A stretch of DNA of 5,082 nt from IMG/VR virus record IMGVR_UViG_2579778652_000011; one strand, given 5' to 3'. Numbering within the stretch: position 1 is the stretch's first letter; every line of letters starts with the position of its first letter. The stretch is from a virus. Lineage: Duplodnaviria; Heunggongvirae; Uroviricota; Caudoviricetes. The notes beneath the pieces are model-generated. The model had not been told where the DNA came from, made no database searches, and saw nothing but the letters and a program-made list of their open reading frames with translations. Both the position numbers and the translations under genes were made by a program. Positions 1,195-5,082 of the stretch are shown in pieces.

Positions 1195-1356
1195 ATGTCT
1201 GAAAAAAACAAGCCACAAGATGAAAATAAACCTCAGCAACCCGTGGCACCAAAACCAACTCCAACACAAAGTACTACAGACTTTGCTACACGTCGTGTTT
1301 TTGTTGGAGATTCTGCCGACTCAGTCATTGAACATATAAAAAAACAGCCGAGATAA
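1195..1356 (+). CDS. Candidate small protein, 53 aa, hydrophilic and Pro/Lys/Gln-rich, convergent with and overlapping the 3' end of the membrane-protein gene
   Basis: ATG at 1195 preceded by AAGAGGA Shine-Dalgarno with 5-nt spacing. Translation MSEKNKPQDENKPQQPVAPKPTPTQSTTDFATRRVFVGDSADSVIEHIKKQPR. Overlaps the minus-strand gene by 32 nt. No homolog recognised, and low-complexity composition makes a chance ORF possible. Confidence 0.3.
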   Translation: MSEKNKPQDENKPQQPVAPKPTPTQSTTDFATRRVFVGDSADSVIEHIKKQPR

Positions 1357-1894
1357 ACATCGCCGCTACCGGAGCAAGGATGGTATACATCCTTGCTTTA
1401 TCGAGACTCGTGCGGATTTTCTCATTTTCCAACAGTAACTCTCTTGCTGTATCACTCAAGTCAACAAGGCGATACCTTCGTATAAGCGGCAATAACTTAT
1501 CAGGTCCTAAATATCCTGCATCAGCGAATATTTTAAAGCTCGAGGGCTCCATATCCTTATATTTTTCATGATATAGATGATCAGGAGGGGCATTGATCAG
1601 GCCCCTAACCTTCACAGATAAACCAGTACATACCAAGTAAATGGCGCACCATGTCCATAGTAATGTAAATGTGGTAATTCCGGCGGTGAGAAAATCGAAA
1701 TTAGTTTTCTGTGTCAGCAATAAAAAAGATGAACCAATTCCAACAATCTGAATGTTCAGAAGTTTGTATCCATTCTCAACATTGGTTTTGTTAGAAAGAT
1801 GAATCTCTCGTATCGTCTCTTCCCCTTGTTTTTCAAGATAATCGACGAGCTCATCATCTACTCCTAAAAAATAATCTTTAGGTAGTTCTCTCAT
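1325..1894 (-). CDS. Uncharacterised membrane protein, 189 aa, moron cargo between Q and the lysis cassette
   Basis: Strong GGAGGTGAG Shine-Dalgarno directly upstream of the ATG at 1894. Predicted soluble N-terminus of about 55 aa, two adjacent TM helices (LLNIQIVGIGSSFLLLT, FLTAGITTFTLLWTWCAIYLVCTGL), a charged helical segment of about 60 aa, and a C-terminal hydrophobic helix (MYTILAPVAAMFISAVFLYV). Markedly more AT-rich than the flanking phage genes. No family recognised. Confidence 0.7.
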   Translation of the reverse strand: MRELPKDYFLGVDDELVDYLEKQGEETIREIHLSNKTNVENGYKLLNIQIVGIGSSFLLLTQKTNFDFLTAGITTFTLLWTWCAIYLVCTGLSVKVRGLINAPPDHLYHEKYKDMEPSSFKIFADAGYLGPDKLLPLIRRYRLVDLSDTARELLLENEKIRTSLDKARMYTILAPVAAMFISAVFLYVQ

Positions 1895-2658: not shown

Positions 2659-2945
2659 AAATAACCTTCCTTTCTCCAGATTTCTTGTGTGCGAAAAACA
2701 CCTTCTGCATGCATCAGGCGTAATTCTTCTTTGGTGTAATCGCTGGTTTTTACCCGCCCGTCGATTAAATCGTGGCATGAGCTACAGGCAATCGCTGCCT
2801 GCATATCGTGTGGTTTTGTCGCTGTTCCGCACGTCCCCGCCAGCCTGTAATGCGCCAGCACAGAGGTTTCGGGATTGTGATTGCAGTAGCCAGGGATTCT
2901 GATCTGGCACATCTGGCCTTTAGCCGCTTTACGTAAATTCACCAT
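2655..2945 (-). CDS. ybcO: YbcO-like DUF1364 protein (Cys/His metal-binding putative nuclease of the lambdoid nin region), 96 aa
   Basis: Translation (LRKAAKGQMCQIRIPGYCNHNPETSVLAHYRLAGTCGTATKP...IACSSCHDLIDG) matches recalled E. coli DLP12 YbcO in length and conserved Cys/His pattern. Start overlaps the upstream stop as TAATG. Confidence 0.75.
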   Translation of the reverse strand: MVNLRKAAKGQMCQIRIPGYCNHNPETSVLAHYRLAGTCGTATKPHDMQAAIACSSCHDLIDGRVKTSDYTKEELRLMHAEGVFRTQEIWRKEGYL

Positions 2946-3544
2946 TACGCAAACTCCAGTAGTTGTGCGGCCACATTTTCAACTTCCTCCTGAGAGGAGA
3001 ATTTACGGAACAGAATCCAGTTCCACAGCACATTCAGAACAGATTTATAAACCTGCTGAAACTCGGTTTCGTCCATATTCGCAAACGCGATGGATTTCGC
3101 CCTGCGCCCACGGCTACCGTCCGGATAAATATGCTCGGTGTAAAATCCGGCCTGAATGGTTACCCACTCGCGGAAAGCCTCAAACGACTTTAGCAATGCC
3201 GTATCCCGAGTTCTGCGTGTCGCAACTGTATTTAGATATTGCTCTGCGGCATCACTCAGGGCTGGTGTGTGTTCCCGACCAACTGATTCGCACAAGTAAT
3301 CCACGAAACCAGACAGCAGTTCTCGTTCGCGAGGTGTGATCGCCCCACCGACCGGAGTCCAGTAATCGAATCCCAGTTGCAGGAGTTTGAAAAAACGCTT
3401 GTGGAATGCGTAGTTACGCACACGCTTAAAGTCTGCGTGTATCCACTCACCTATTTTGATTTGATGCAGAAAATCGCAACTCTCCGGCGTCGCCGGGAGA
3501 AGTAAACCAGAAGAGGTTTGTTTGACCAGTTGTATATGCGCCAT
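2945..3544 (-). CDS. Phage nin-region protein, probably DUF1367 family, 199 aa
   Basis: Long ORF directly upstream of and translationally coupled to the YbcO-like gene, the usual DUF1367 to DUF1364 to Q arrangement in lambdoid prophages. Family assignment is from recollection, not a search. Confidence 0.6.
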   Translation of the reverse strand: MAHIQLVKQTSSGLLLPATPESCDFLHQIKIGEWIHADFKRVRNYAFHKRFFKLLQLGFDYWTPVGGAITPRERELLSGFVDYLCESVGREHTPALSDAAEQYLNTVATRRTRDTALLKSFEAFREWVTIQAGFYTEHIYPDGSRGRRAKSIAFANMDETEFQQVYKSVLNVLWNWILFRKFSSQEEVENVAAQLLEFA

Positions 3545-3824: not shown

Positions 3825-3911
3825 ATGGAAAATAACAAGTTCGCACATCTCGCTCCTTTTTTATCCGTAATCCTTTTCGCTTGTTGTTTTATATGGGCAT
3901 TATTTTTATAA
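3825..3911 (+). CDS. Candidate small hydrophobic protein, 28 aa, single predicted TM helix
   Basis: ATG at 3825 preceded by TAAGGTGG Shine-Dalgarno with 6-nt spacing. Translation MENNKFAHLAPFLSVILFACCFIWALFL. Lies in AT-rich intergenic DNA. Confidence 0.35.
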   Translation: MENNKFAHLAPFLSVILFACCFIWALFL

Positions 3912-3984: not shown

Positions 3985-4045
3985 AGGACACCTTTACATT
4001 ATTTATGTGTATATAATTTATTTATATACACAGTAAAGGTATCCT
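3985..4045. repeat. Composite imperfect palindrome: perfect 10-bp inverted repeat TGTGTATATA / TATATACACA with 7-bp spacer, flanked by 13-bp arms AGGACACCTTTAC / GTAAAGGTATCCT (12/13)
   Basis: Read directly. Inner arms at 4006-4015 and 4023-4032, outer arms at 3985-3997 and 4033-4045. The left side carries an 8-nt insertion (ATTATTTA) between outer and inner arms. Confidence 0.6.
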
Positions 4046-4302
4046 GGGAAAATATTTATCGTTAAAAAATACATCATAAATAATTAAGCTGAAATTTCAG
4101 AACACAACTAATACACACAATAAGGTTCAGTAACAATAATCTATGTGGACTACATCGAGATTTTTTGATTAAACTTTAATAACTTATTCCTAACACACAG
4201 AATGCATAAACTAAAAGTAAAACAAATAGTTATACGAAAAACAACCATATTTATTATATCTTCTCCTCTAATCAACATATCAATTATGTGTTTCATAACA
4301 GC

Positions 4303-4350
4303 TTGACATAACCCTCAAAAACACGCATTTATAATGCATGTTTTTGAGGG
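4303..4350 (+). promoter_or_regulatory. yeaR-like promoter region with an NsrR-like operator palindrome centred on the -10
   Basis: Perfect TTGACA (4303-4308) and TATAAT (4330-4335) separated by 21 bp. 17-bp arms CCCTCAAAAACACGCAT / ATGCATGTTTTTGAGGG (16/17) centred at 4331. The core AACACGCATTT-A-TAATGCATGTT (4320-4342) matches about 18 of 22 positions of the NsrR 11-1-11 consensus as I recall it (AAGATGCATTT n AAATACATCTT). Confidence 0.5.
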
Positions 4351-4357
4351 GGTGGTT

Positions 4358-4696
4358 ATGACACACAAGAGAATTCCTAAAGATTGGGTAATCAAACGCT
4401 CAACTCCGTTCTTCACAAAAGAGAACGTACCTTCAGCGTTATTAACACATCATAATACAGCAGCAGGTGTTTTTGGGCAGTTGTGCGTAATGGAAGGCAC
4501 TGTAACATATTATGGTTTTACTGATGAGAATGCTACTGAACCGGAGATAAAAGTAGTCATTAATGCTGGCGCTTTTGCAACAAGCCCACCACAATACTGG
4601 CACCGTGTTGAACTAAGCGATGATGCTCAGTTTAATATTAACTTTTGGGTCGCTCCAGACTTCTCGGGCGAAAAAGTCTATAGCACCAAAAAATAG
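4358..4696 (+). CDS. yeaR: YeaR-like DUF1971 protein, 112 aa
   Basis: Size and motifs (RSTPFF, FNINFWVAP) resemble my recollection of E. coli YeaR. The NsrR-like operator upstream fits known NsrR/NarL regulation of yeaR. Start taken at ATG 4358 after a GAGGGGGTGG Shine-Dalgarno, because the annotated ATG at 4334 lies inside the -10 hexamer. Confidence 0.6.
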   Translation: MTHKRIPKDWVIKRSTPFFTKENVPSALLTHHNTAAGVFGQLCVMEGTVTYYGFTDENATEPEIKVVINAGAFATSPPQYWHRVELSDDAQFNINFWVAPDFSGEKVYSTKK

Positions 4697-4725: not shown

Positions 4726-4762
4726 AGACCCGGCAGGGCTATCCCCGACGGGTCTCATTTTT
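4726..4762 (+). terminator. Intrinsic terminator downstream of the yeaR-like gene
   Basis: 7-bp stem AGACCCG (4726-4732) pairs with CGGGTCT (4749-4755), with additional imperfect inner pairing. Followed by CA then TTTTT (4758-4762). Confidence 0.6.
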
Positions 4763-4914
4763 GTAAATATATTGGTTCTACATTGACAGGAGACTTCAAC
4801 CATAAGAAGTAATCTGAATACTTGAGCAATAAATTTACTTAAGATTAATGAGCGCACCTTGCCGGACAAAGATAAACCAAGGTAACACCTTTTTTCTAGC
4901 CAGTATGTAATCAA

Positions 4915-5082
4915 TCAGAAAGCCGCTCCATAAGAACAACAGCAAGACAATAAATTGCCATTACAGCCGCAATAGCCAGCGCACATTTGAGAACCAGCAC
5001 GACAACCCCCTGTATTAGACGCACACCAGTCCTGATAAATATGTAGACTGGCCCCCTGAATCTCCAGACAACCAATATCACT
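4915..5082 (-). CDS. Possible 3' end of a gene entering from beyond the window (55 open codons, Cys-rich C-terminus)
   Basis: Minus-strand frame is open from 5082 to a TGA at 4917-4915. Translation ends ...QDWCASNTGGCRAGSQMCAGYCGCNGNLLSCCCSYGAAF. No start or Shine-Dalgarno is visible in the window, and an open frame of this length can occur by chance. Confidence 0.15.
   Translation of the reverse strand, partial: SDIGCLEIQGASLHIYQDWCASNTGGCRAGSQMCAGYCGCNGNLLSCCCSYGAAF

What the first reader, a model, noticed from the sequence alone, without database searches (positions are those of the whole stretch)
4300..4360. NsrR-like operator centred on the -10 of the yeaR-like gene, with a 21-bp promoter spacer
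Consensus TTGACA and TATAAT hexamers are present but 21 bp apart, too far for a normal sigma70 promoter. A 17-bp-arm palindrome whose core resembles the NsrR 11-1-11 site is centred exactly on the -10. This fits nitric-oxide-responsive repression of a yeaR-type gene, and the odd spacing suggests either a different -35 is used or an activator is needed (E. coli yeaR is NarL-activated).
Basis: partly seen in the sequence, partly recalled or inferred. Interest (0 to 1): 0.4.

Follow-up and report, generated by a model that had tools for sequence, protein, structure and literature searches.

The report
Prophage-borne NsrR operator on NO-stress gene
A small gene carried by an E. coli prophage sits behind a promoter that overlaps a strong binding site for the host's nitric-oxide sensor NsrR, the same wiring already known for the matching Salmonella gene, so the finding is real but mostly ordinary.

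Summary
TTGACA (4303-4308) and TATAAT (4330-4335) are 21 bp apart. An 18-nt-arm palindrome with one mismatch (4312-4329 / 4333-4350) is centred on base 4331.

Its 23-bp core (4320-4342, AACACGCATTTATAATGCATGTT) scores 20.9 and 21.4 bits on two independent NsrR matrices (p about 4e-8). That is 8.5 and 12 bits above the next site in the window.

The gene (4358-4696) is only 41% identical to YeaR. It is the STM1808/"tehB^" type of DUF1971 protein, 75-82% identical to chromosomal genes of Kluyvera, Citrobacter, Klebsiella and Salmonella. Nearly all enterobacterial orthologues carry a 20-30-bit NsrR site at the same place. Vibrio orthologues sit behind norVW instead.

In 53/53 orthologue promoters that have the site, the -10 lies at operator positions 7-12, 17-18 bp from the -35, and the operator's central base is T. 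Here that base is A. This spoils the ancestral -10 (CATTTA) and creates TATAAT 4 bp downstream. No NarL or FNR site is present.

The module is prophage cargo in about 8% of complete E. coli genomes. The arms beyond the NsrR core are lineage-specific and hypervariable, and they would bury the ribosome-binding site in read-through RNA. Their function is unproven. This is a new member of a known kind.

The parts
4303..4308 (+). -35 hexamer TTGACA. It is invariant in all 14 prophage alleles and homologous in position to the TTTACA/TTGACG/TTGCCT of the orthologues.
   Evidence: The geometry of -35, then 11 nt, then the operator is the same as in the Kluyvera and Klebsiella orthologues.
4326..4331 (+). 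Ancestral-register -10 hexamer (operator positions 7-12), 17 bp from the -35. It reads CATTTA here: A at position 2 is kept, T at position 6 is lost.
   Evidence: 53/53 orthologue promoters have A2 and T6 in this hexamer (TATTTT, TATATT, CATATT). 7/42 prophage loci keep CATTTT.
4330..4335 (+). Consensus TATAAT, 21 bp from TTGACA (operator positions 11-16). It is derived: base 4331, the operator's central base, is its critical A at position 2.
   Evidence: None of the 53 orthologues has A2 and T6 in this register. Prophage alleles read TATAAT, CATAAT or TTTAAT.
4320..4342 (.). NsrR operator, 11-1-11 inverted repeat AACACGCATTT-A-TAATGCATGTT.
   Evidence: 20.9 bits, p 4.4e-8; 21.4 bits, p 3.8e-8 on a second matrix. 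The site is conserved in orthologues at 24-30 bits. Prophage alleles score 17.7-28.6 bits.
4312..4350 (.). Extended palindrome: 18-nt arms, one mismatch, 3-nt centre. The 8 bp on each side of the operator (CCCTCAAA / TTTGAGGG) lie outside the NsrR motif.
   Evidence: DNA hairpin -16.3 kcal/mol, z -7.6. K-12 NsrR operators extend only 0-3 bp. The segment is a diversity hot spot with 17/41 segregating sites.
4287..4299 (.). Outer left arm TGTGTTTCATAAC, complementary to 4355-4367.
   Evidence: 13 nt, 92%. It is part of the -36.7 kcal/mol RNA fold. It is invariant among alleles, so it carries no covariation information.
4355..4367 (.). Outer right arm GTTATGACACACA. It contains the start codon.
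4346..4352 (+). Shine-Dalgarno sequence GAGGGGG, 5 nt before the ATG. It lies in the right arm of the palindrome.
   Evidence: In every allele it pairs with a CCUC-type left flank.
4358..4696 (+). DUF1971 gene (112 aa) of the STM1808/tehB^ type. The in-frame ATG at 4334 inside TATAAT is an annotation artefact.
   Evidence: Pfam PF09313, E 2e-26. 75-82% identity to enterobacterial and Vibrio orthologues. PDB 3DL3, E 3.5e-59. RefSeq annotates the 112-113-aa form.
4726..4763 (+). Terminator-like hairpin GACCCGG...CGGGUC followed by UCAUUUUUG. It makes the gene a one-gene unit.
   Evidence: (I4). The z-score is only -1.7, so this is a plausible terminator, not a proven one.

Best explanation
The segment 4303-4342 is the promoter-operator of a self-contained prophage cargo gene (promoter, DUF1971 gene, terminator).

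The host repressor NsrR, an Rrf2-family [Fe-S] protein and NO sensor, binds as a dimer to the 23-bp inverted repeat 4320-4342. That repeat covers the -10 region and the transcription start, so RNA polymerase is excluded. Nitrosylation of the NsrR cluster by NO releases the repressor and the gene is expressed. This puts a phage-borne STM1808-type NO-stress gene under the lysogen's NsrR regulon.

Shown in silico: the operator match, its position, its conservation across orthologues, and the prophage context. Inferred: actual NsrR binding and NO induction.

The 21-bp spacing comes from the promoter's history. TTGACA is the conserved -35, and the ancestral -10 is operator positions 7-12 at 17 bp. 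In this allele lineage a T-to-A change at the operator's central base, which the NsrR motif does not specify, removed the key T at position 6 of that hexamer. The same change created a perfect TATAAT 4 bp downstream. Which hexamer is used now cannot be decided from sequence, but NsrR covers both.

The palindrome arms beyond the 23-mer are not part of NsrR recognition. They most likely arose by arm-to-arm copying (template switching in a quasi-palindrome). Whether they have a function is open.
For: Operator match. Two independent NsrR matrices give 20.9 and 21.4 bits, p about 4e-8, with the next best site in the window 8.5 and 12 bits lower. The matrices were built.

Conservation. 53 of the 79 non-prophage orthologue loci scanned have a site of at least 17 bits (mostly 24-30) centred 27-39 nt before the ATG (55 in one Photobacterium locus), and these include nearly all enterobacterial loci. 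Most Vibrionaceae orthologues lack it and lie directly after norV-norW. That matches the NorR-controlled norVW-tehB^ operons listed by Rodionov 2005.

Literature on the orthologue. STM1808 (tehB^) has a predicted NsrR site GgTGtATaTTAAATaCATC. It is cited as an NsrR-regulon and virulence gene after Karlinsey 2012. The Salmonella orthologue locus is nhaB-dsbB-DUF1971.

Promoter geometry. In 53/53 orthologues the hexamer at operator positions 7-12 has A2 and T6. A -35-like hexamer with at least 4/6 matches lies 17-18 bp upstream in 46/53. The central base is T in 53/53. The classic K-12 operators of hmp, ytfE, hcp and ygbA also sit 26-38 nt before the ATG.

Cargo status. The module always occupies the same slot of Rac-like lambdoid prophages, between the DUF1367 gene and the replication genes. 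It is also present in three deposited phage genomes. It occurs in 457-464 of 5426 complete E. coli genomes.

Arm copying. The derived alleles differ from the ancestral-like ones by two clusters of changes, each making one arm the complement of the other (alignment).
Against: There is no binding or expression evidence for this copy; everything is sequence-based.

The left half-site (AACACGCATTT) has C at position 5, which none of the 27 sites in Table 4 of Mehta 2015 shows. This allele scores 6-8 bits below its sister alleles.

Neither candidate -10 makes a canonical promoter. CATTTA lacks the T at position 6, and TATAAT has no usable -35 at 16-18 bp (CATAAC, ATAACC, ACATAA) and no TG extension. 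The promoter scan does not call the site. The promoter might therefore be weak or dead in this allele.

The primary paper on STM1808 (Karlinsey 2012, PMC3438343) could not be read, so experimental support rests on secondary citations.

The operator segment is a diversity hot spot, which is not what simple purifying selection on an operator predicts.
Confidence: 0.75

Rival explanations
1. The extra palindrome arms (4312-4319 / 4343-4350 and 4287-4299 / 4355-4367) act at the RNA level as a fold-back insulator. Transcripts entering from upstream contain both arms and fold into a long hairpin that buries the Shine-Dalgarno sequence and the AUG, so they are not translated. Transcripts from the NsrR-controlled promoter start inside the hairpin (about 4338-4343), lack the left arm and are translated. 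This would add to NsrR control, not replace it, and resembles the fold-back inhibition described for IS10 and IS50 transposase mRNAs (from my own knowledge, not checked in a paper here).
For: The RNA 4287-4367 folds at -36.7 kcal/mol, z -7.4 to -7.6, with the SD and AUG paired.

All prophage alleles tested keep the fold (z -3.6 to -6.4) although this is the most variable segment of the locus.

Two base pairs change on both sides: C-G to A-U in allele a8, and A-U to C-G in a3, a10 and a13. Each allele's own arms pair better than chimeric arm combinations (mean -17.8 vs -15.3 kcal/mol; permutation p 5e-5, not corrected for shared descent).

A Phytobacter orthologue also pairs CUCC with GGAGG around its operator.
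Against: No upstream same-strand promoter is established; the only match is a weak 9/12 one at 4112-4140.

The SD-burying fold is absent from Kluyvera, Klebsiella and Salmonella orthologues, and the long Citrobacter hairpin does not include the SD.

Overall covariation is weak: 2 pairs, and the count of such pairs does not exceed shuffles (263/500).

Arm-to-arm copying produces the same pattern without any selection. No Rfam family matches; the only hits are sub-threshold generic hairpin hits.
Confidence: 0.2
2. The arms beyond the NsrR 23-mer have no function. They are a mutational by-product. An operator that is already an inverted repeat is prone to intra-strand template switching during replication, which copies one arm from the other, lengthens and perfects the palindrome, and makes the segment a mutation hot spot.
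For: The extension is lineage-specific and arose at least twice, with different sequences: 8 bp in the prophage lineage, 7-11 bp in Citrobacter and Yokenella, and 0-5 bp in Kluyvera and Klebsiella. K-12 operators extend 0-3 bp.

The derived alleles (a1, a4 = this window) differ from the ancestral-like a2 by two clusters of three changes. Each cluster converts one arm into the complement of the other, at the cost of 6 bits of NsrR score.

Allele a8 restores pairing that was broken in a5. Diversity is concentrated in 4312-4352: 17/41 segregating sites against 169/846 in the remaining aligned columns, Fisher p 0.002.
Against: The direction of change is inferred from outgroups only. The pattern cannot be told apart from selection for pairing. 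No experiment was possible. Recombination among prophages could also shuffle alleles.
Confidence: 0.5
3. One reading: the 21-bp spacing means the promoter depends on an activator such as NarL, as at E. coli yeaR, or on spacer-untwisting of the MerR type.
For: The consensus hexamers are too far apart for unaided sigma-70 use. E. coli yeaR is NarL-dependent.
Against: No NarL 7-2-7 match with 3 or fewer mismatches lies anywhere near 4250-4350; the three window hits are at 1859, 2356 and 5030, as expected by chance. There is no FNR site near the promoter and no Fur box.

Orthologue promoters have an ordinary 17-18-bp geometry without any conserved upstream site.

The dyad is centred on the -10, not in the spacer as at MerR-type promoters.

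At yeaR the NsrR operator overlaps the NarL site and the -35, which is a different layout.
Confidence: 0.05
4. In this allele the promoter is effectively dead. The T-to-A change destroyed the -10, and TATAAT at 21 bp cannot be used. The operator is then a relic and the gene is silent, or expressed only by read-through.
For: CATTTA lacks the T at position 6, which is kept in 53/53 orthologues. The canonical promoter scan does not call the site. The half-site is degraded.
Against: The A-centre alleles are the majority (35/42 loci) and have diversified into 11 alleles. The CDS stays intact and at least 95% identical in 457 genomes, which argues for continued use. A perfect TATAAT can drive -35-independent initiation in AT-rich DNA (general knowledge, not tested here).
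Confidence: 0.1

Closest known systems
STM1808 (tehB^) promoter of Salmonella enterica and its enterobacterial orthologues, members of the NsrR regulon
   Same: Orthologous protein, 79% identical. A single NsrR 11-1-11 site lies just upstream of the gene, overlapping a -10 at operator positions 7-12. The gene is monocistronic.
   Different: Location: here the gene is cargo of a Rac-like lambdoid prophage in E. coli, not in the chromosomal nhaB-dsbB locus.

Sequence: the central operator base is A, not T, which shifts the consensus -10 by 4 bp. The left half-site is degenerate. The palindrome is extended by 8 bp per side and reaches the SD.
E. coli K-12 yeaR-yoaG control region (NarL-activated, NsrR-repressed)
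   Same: A DUF1971 gene with an NsrR 11-1-11 operator in its control region.
   Different: The proteins are only 41% identical. The yeaR operator is centred 78 nt before the ATG and overlaps the NarL 7-2-7 site at -43.5 and the -35. Here it is 27 nt before the ATG, over the -10 and start site. There is no NarL site and no yoaG partner.
Classic E. coli NsrR operators of ytfE, hmp, hcp and ygbA
   Same: A 23-bp 11-1-11 repeat with an ATGCAT core, centred 26-38 nt upstream of the ATG. The score lies within their range of 20-30 bits.
   Different: Those operators are palindromic for only 0-3 bp beyond the 23-mer. This one continues for 8 bp and has a further outer arm pair.
Vibrio norVW(-fpr)-tehB^ operons under NorR
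   Same: The same protein family at 75-80% identity, again tied to NO detoxification genes.
   Different: There is no own promoter or NsrR site. According to Rodionov 2005, expression comes from the sigma-54/NorR promoter of norV.
Phage morons (independent promoter-gene-terminator units in lambdoid prophages)
   Same: A one-gene unit with its own promoter and a terminator-like hairpin. It is set against the direction of the flanking phage genes, is variably present among related prophages, and sits in a slot that holds other cargo.
   Different: Its promoter carries an operator for a specific host stress regulator, inherited together with the gene from a chromosomal ancestor.
Fold-back inhibition hairpins of IS10/IS50 transposase mRNAs
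   Same: An inverted repeat upstream of the element's own start site can pair with the ribosome-binding site in read-through transcripts only. The comparison with IS10/IS50 is from my own knowledge.
   Different: This is unproven here. The hairpin core is also a repressor operator, and no read-through transcript has been demonstrated.

Membership tests
NsrR (Rrf2-family) operator | 23-bp 11-1-11 inverted repeat that matches the NsrR weight matrix above the threshold used for genome scans | tested here: met
   20.9 bits, p 4.4e-8, ln p -16.9, against the published cut-off of -14.28 on that paper's own matrix. 21.4 bits, p 3.8e-8 on an independent matrix.
NsrR (Rrf2-family) operator | Operator overlaps the core promoter or start site of the regulated gene (repressor logic) | tested here: met
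   The operator 4320-4342 covers both candidate -10 hexamers and the expected start at 4338-4343. The distance to the ATG is similar to that at hmp, ytfE, hcp and ygbA. The start site itself is not mapped.
NsrR (Rrf2-family) operator | Site conserved upstream of orthologous genes in species that have NsrR | tested here: met
   53 orthologue loci have a site of at least 17 bits at a fixed distance. All 14 prophage alleles keep 17.7-28.6 bits.
NsrR (Rrf2-family) operator | NsrR binds the site, and NO or nsrR deletion de-represses the gene | not testable with these tools
   This needs EMSA, footprinting, ChIP or reporter assays. Only the orthologue STM1808 is reported as NsrR-regulated, and only through secondary citations.
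NsrR (Rrf2-family) operator | The host encodes NsrR | not tested
   The window does not contain nsrR. That E. coli carries nsrR is established knowledge (e.g.: NsrR is identical in CFT073 and K-12).
yeaR-yoaG type control region | NarL 7-2-7 site centred near -43.5 | tested here: not met
   No match with 3 or fewer mismatches lies near the promoter.
yeaR-yoaG type control region | NsrR operator overlapping the -35 and the NarL site, far upstream of the ATG | tested here: not met
   The operator centre is 27 nt before the ATG here, against 78 nt at yeaR.
yeaR-yoaG type control region | Gene is an orthologue of YeaR and is followed by yoaG | tested here: not met
   41% identity to YeaR. PDB 3DL3 is far closer than YeaR 3BB6. 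The gene is followed by a terminator-like hairpin and no yoaG.
STM1808/tehB^ group of DUF1971 proteins | Full-length, high-identity orthology to the Salmonella, Klebsiella and Vibrio tehB^ proteins | tested here: met
   75-82% identity over 111-112 of 112 residues. Pfam DUF1971, E 2e-26. The Salmonella orthologue lies after nhaB-dsbB, and its upstream site matches the STM1808 site printed by Rodionov 2005.
STM1808/tehB^ group of DUF1971 proteins | Histidines reported as needed for zinc binding and NO resistance in STM1808 (H32 and H82, as I recall from Karlinsey 2012; the paper could not be read) | tested here: inconclusive
   His32 and His82 are present in the window protein (translation). 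The requirement itself rests on memory (one search failed).
Phage moron | Independent promoter-gene-terminator unit inside a prophage, variably present among related phages | tested here: met
   The module always lies between the DUF1367 gene and the replication genes of Rac-like prophages and in phage genomes. It is present in 457 of 5426 genomes. A terminator-like hairpin follows the gene. Promoter activity is not shown.
MerR-type long-spacer promoter | 19-20-bp spacer with the regulator's dyad inside the spacer | tested here: not met
   The spacer is 21 bp, and the dyad centre (4331) lies in the -10 hexamer, not in the spacer.
Fold-back inhibition hairpin (IS10/IS50-like) | Upstream arm pairs with the ribosome-binding site, and the element's own start site lies inside the hairpin | tested here: inconclusive
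   Pairing is predicted in all prophage alleles, with weak covariation. The start site and any read-through transcripts are unknown.

The most novel reading that the evidence does not exclude
The operator doubles as the core of a translational insulator. The palindrome has been lengthened until its left arm pairs with the ribosome-binding site and start codon. RNA entering from the surrounding prophage is then untranslatable, and only transcripts that NsrR allows to start inside the hairpin make protein. The structure is built and kept in step by arm-to-arm template switching. A single change at the operator's central base moves the -10 between two registers 4 bp apart, so prophage populations would carry promoter alleles of different strength.
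Probability: 0.15. Interest if true: 0.5.

Novelty: new member of a known kind. Interest (0 to 1): 0.3.

Why it matters
If the operator works as predicted, about one in twelve sequenced E. coli strains carries a prophage that adds an NO-inducible STM1808-type gene to the host's NsrR regulon. E. coli K-12 has only the distant paralogue YeaR, and no other copy of the gene turned up in the E. coli genomes searched. In Salmonella the orthologue is reported to contribute to nitrosative-stress resistance and virulence. The prophage copy would then be a case of lysogenic conversion that comes already wired to a host stress sensor, which is relevant to survival in the inflamed gut or in macrophages.

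For annotation, the lesson is that perfect TTGACA and TATAAT hexamers can mislead. The conserved promoter register is the unremarkable-looking one. The locus is also a compact natural example of a quasi-palindromic operator evolving by clustered, arm-templated changes.

Tried and rejected
- NarL 7-2-7, FNR and Fur consensus scans found nothing at the promoter.
- The standard sigma-70 scan does not call the site, so it could not decide between the two -10 registers. A frequency-based hand score was considered and dropped, because the penalty for a 21-bp spacer cannot be set reliably.
- An Rfam search gave only sub-threshold generic hairpin hits (miRNA precursor models at 27.7 and 23.2 bits, against gathering scores of 100 and 81), so there is no known RNA family.
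- The primary STM1808 paper (Karlinsey 2012, PMC3438343) is not held. Searches for DUF1971, STM1808 and NsrR plus prophage found no report of the prophage copy.
- The first literature search was polluted because 'yeaR' matched the word 'year'.
- A terminator role for the palindrome was rejected: no U-run follows it on either strand.
- A MerR-like mechanism was rejected on geometry.
- NCBIfam found no family for the 28-aa upstream ORF or for the 189-aa and 53-aa ORFs near the lysis genes; Pfam also found none for the latter two.
- Structure prediction was not run because the question concerns the operator, not the protein fold.
Full report
CONTEXT

The window is part of a Rac-like lambdoid prophage of E. 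coli. On the minus strand lie:
- a lysozyme ORF (156-632; annotated glycoside hydrolase family 24 in the matching genome);
- a lambda-family holin (636-986);
- a Q-like antiterminator (DUF1133, 2119-2658);
- YbcO (2655-2945);
- a DUF1367 gene (2945-3544).

To the right is an AT-rich cargo region. It holds one plus-strand gene, 4358-4696, a DUF1971 protein (Pfam E 2e-26). The same arrangement is found in E. coli chromosomes next to ydaU, ydaV, recE, recT and trkG and in three deposited phage genomes.

THE OBSERVATION

It is correct. TTGACA is at 4303-4308 and TATAAT at 4330-4335, with 21 bp between them. The inverted repeat has 18-nt arms (4312-4329 / 4333-4350), one mismatch and a 3-nt centre. 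Its centre, base 4331, is the second base of TATAAT.

It is far beyond chance. Shuffles of the AT-rich region never reach it, and the hairpin z-scores are about -7.5.

With it the quasi-palindrome spans about 80 bp and takes in the Shine-Dalgarno sequence (4346-4352) and the start codon.

IS THE CORE AN NsrR SITE?

I built one from the 23-mers in Table 4 of Mehta et al. 2015 (PMC5320621). The candidate AACACGCATTTATAATGCATGTT (4320-4342) scores 20.9 bits, p = 4.4e-8 (ln p = -16.9). It ranks 10th of 26 among the training sites and is 8.5 bits above the next site in the window. With the local AT-rich background p is still 3e-7.

A second matrix used 24 enterobacterial sites of Rodionov et al. 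2005, leaving out all tehB entries to avoid circularity. It gives 21.4 bits, p = 3.8e-8, above 7 of 24 leave-one-out training scores.

WHAT THE GENE IS

It is not a yeaR orthologue: identity to K-12 YeaR is 41%. It is 75-82% identical, over its full length, to chromosomal DUF1971 genes of Kluyvera, Leclercia, Citrobacter, Klebsiella, Raoultella, Salmonella, Vibrio, Aliivibrio, Photobacterium and Shewanella. The closest solved structure is 3DL3, 'tellurite resistance protein B' (E 3.5e-59), well ahead of YeaR 3BB6 (E 1.6e-24).

The Salmonella orthologue follows nhaB and dsbB. Its upstream site is the one Rodionov et al. list as 'STM1808 (tehB^) GgTGtATaTTAAATaCATC'. STM1808 is cited as an NsrR-regulon gene with a role in virulence, after Karlinsey et al. 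2012. I could not read that paper itself.

COMPARATIVE FOOTPRINT

Of the 79 non-prophage orthologue loci, 53 have an NsrR site of at least 17 bits. Most score 24-30 bits, and the site is centred 27-39 nt before the ATG (55 in one Photobacterium locus). These loci include nearly all enterobacterial ones.

Most Vibrionaceae lack the site. There the gene lies directly after norV (flavorubredoxin) and norW, which matches the NorR-controlled norVW-tehB^ operons of Rodionov et al.. The family is thus tied to the NO response throughout the gamma-proteobacteria, by NsrR in enterics and by NorR in vibrios. It also shows that this kind of regulation is already known.

THE 21-BP SPACER

The orthologues explain it. 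In all 53 promoters that have the operator:
- the hexamer at operator positions 7-12 has A at position 2 and T at position 6 (TATTTT 19, TATATT 15, CATATT 13, others 6);
- a -35-like hexamer lies 17-18 bp upstream (at least 4/6 matches in 46/53);
- the central base of the operator is T in 53/53;
- the hexamer at positions 11-16 never has both key bases.

The NsrR motif leaves that central base free, and here it serves as the last T of the -10.

The window keeps exactly this geometry: TTGACA, 11 nt, then the operator. Its central base, however, is A. The ancestral hexamer therefore reads CATTTA, and the same A becomes the key second base of TATAAT 4 bp downstream.

Among 42 prophage loci (14 alleles), 7 keep T (CATTTT at 17 bp, with TTTAAT in the other register). 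The other 35 have A (TATAAT, or CATAAT in one allele). The consensus TATAAT is therefore a derived feature made by one substitution, and TTGACA is the old -35.

Which -10 is used now cannot be settled from sequence:
- CATTTA lacks the key T;
- TATAAT has no -35 at 16-18 bp and no TG extension;
- the expected starts are A4338 for CATTTA and T4341-4343 for TATAAT.

Either way the operator covers the -10 and the start.

THE NarL IDEA

At K-12 yeaR the NarL 7-2-7 site TAACCAATAAATGGTA at -43.5 (PMC10853779) overlaps the left half of the NsrR operator. That operator therefore lies over the -35, 78 nt from the ATG. The window has no NarL 7-2-7, FNR or Fur match near the promoter, and the orthologues show no conserved upstream element. 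The analogy with yeaR does not hold. A MerR-like mechanism does not fit either, because the dyad is on the -10 and not in the spacer.

WHY THE PALINDROME IS LONGER THAN AN NsrR SITE

The K-12 operators of hmp, ytfE, hcp, ygbA and yeaR are palindromic for only 0-3 bp beyond the 23-mer. The window continues for 8 bp.

Among orthologues, long extensions occur only in Citrobacter and Yokenella (7-11 bp, with matching changes such as CATTTAT/ATAAATG, CATCTAT/ATAGATG and CACCTAT/ATAGGTG) and in the prophage lineage.

Within E. coli the CDS is at least 95% identical in all 457 genomes that have it. The 41 bp 4312-4352, by contrast, have 17 segregating sites, against 169 of 846 in the remaining aligned columns, and far fewer in the immediate flanks.

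The alleles keep pairing between a CCUC-type left flank and the GAGG of the ribosome-binding site. Two pairs change on both sides. Each allele's own arms pair better than swapped arms (p 5e-5, not corrected for descent).

The window's allele group (left half-site AACACG) differs from the ancestral-like AAGGTG and AAGATG alleles by two clusters of changes. Each cluster makes one arm the complement of the other, and the NsrR score falls from 26.6-27.8 to 20.7 bits. This is the signature expected from template switching in a quasi-palindrome (inference). I consider that the most likely origin of the long arms.

A functional reading is not excluded. RNA entering from upstream would fold at -36.7 kcal/mol and bury the ribosome-binding site and AUG. 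RNA started at the NsrR-controlled promoter would lack the left arm. The evidence for this reading is weak: no upstream promoter is established, the SD-burying fold is confined to the prophage lineage, and no known RNA family matches.

VERDICT

- The feature is real and is best read as an NsrR operator over the promoter of a prophage-borne STM1808-type NO-stress gene.
- The mechanism (repression by NsrR, relief by NO) is inferred from sequence, conservation and the literature on orthologues. It is not shown for this copy.
- It is a new member of a known kind. The new points are the prophage location in about 8% of complete E. coli genomes, the shifted consensus -10, and the evolving extended palindrome.
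- Interest is modest.

Noticed in passing
window 3825-3911 (+): A 28-codon ORF (MENNKFAHLAPFLSVILFACCFIWALFL) with a strong Shine-Dalgarno sequence (AAGGTGG) 6 nt upstream. It is very hydrophobic and resembles a small membrane or toxin-like peptide. NCBIfam finds no family.
   Followed up: partly
window 3985-4045: A second long inverted repeat in the AT-rich cargo region: 22-nt arms, 77% complementary, with a perfect inner palindrome TGTGTATATAA/TTATATACACA at 4006-4032. Rfam gives only a sub-threshold generic hairpin hit. Its function is unknown; it may be a terminator or small-RNA element after the small ORF.
   Followed up: no
window 4150-4296 (-): A 48-codon minus-strand ORF whose start (GTTATGAAACACA, MKH...) is the mirror image of the DUF1971 start (GTTATGACACACA, MTH...). 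The outer palindrome arms therefore look like an inverted partial duplication of the gene start. One phage record annotates a shorter hypothetical protein (43 codons, 132 nt) on this strand at roughly this position; RefSeq does not.
   Followed up: partly
window 4287-4312: Two tandem 13-nt units, TGTGTTTCATAAC and AGCTTGACATAAC, both end in CATAAC and both are complementary to GTTATG at the start codon (I5 and I10). The -35 hexamer lies inside the second unit.
   Followed up: no
window 4334-4357: The ATG inside TATAAT is in frame with the gene, and some databases list 120-121-aa products from it. Orthologues and RefSeq start at 4358.
   Followed up: yes
window 5042-5082: The last 40 bases match the end of insertion sequence IS2, as annotated in several records. 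Most related E. coli genomes stop matching at about 5050. The window therefore ends at an IS2 insertion in the cargo region.
   Followed up: partly
window 1325-1894 (-) and 1195-1353 (+): A 189-aa ORF with no Pfam or NCBIfam match lies between the Q-like antiterminator and the holin, the position where lambdoid phages often carry late-expressed cargo such as stx. A 53-codon ORF lies on the opposite strand. In other prophages this position holds tRNA genes or an IS150.
   Followed up: no
L001 10920-13245; L083 4543-4668; L084 5069-5737: The slot next to the DUF1971 gene holds different cargo in different prophages: a SIR2-family deacylase with a non-canonical purine NTP pyrophosphatase and an adenosine deaminase (possibly an anti-phage system), a Hok/Gef toxin, or QueH.
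   Followed up: no
L026, L029, L049 and other Citrobacter loci, about 40 nt upstream of the orthologue: Citrobacter and Yokenella orthologues carry a 43-bp near-perfect palindrome around the NsrR site, with compensatory changes between species in the flanks. It does not include the ribosome-binding site. This is an independent case of operator palindrome extension.
   Followed up: partly
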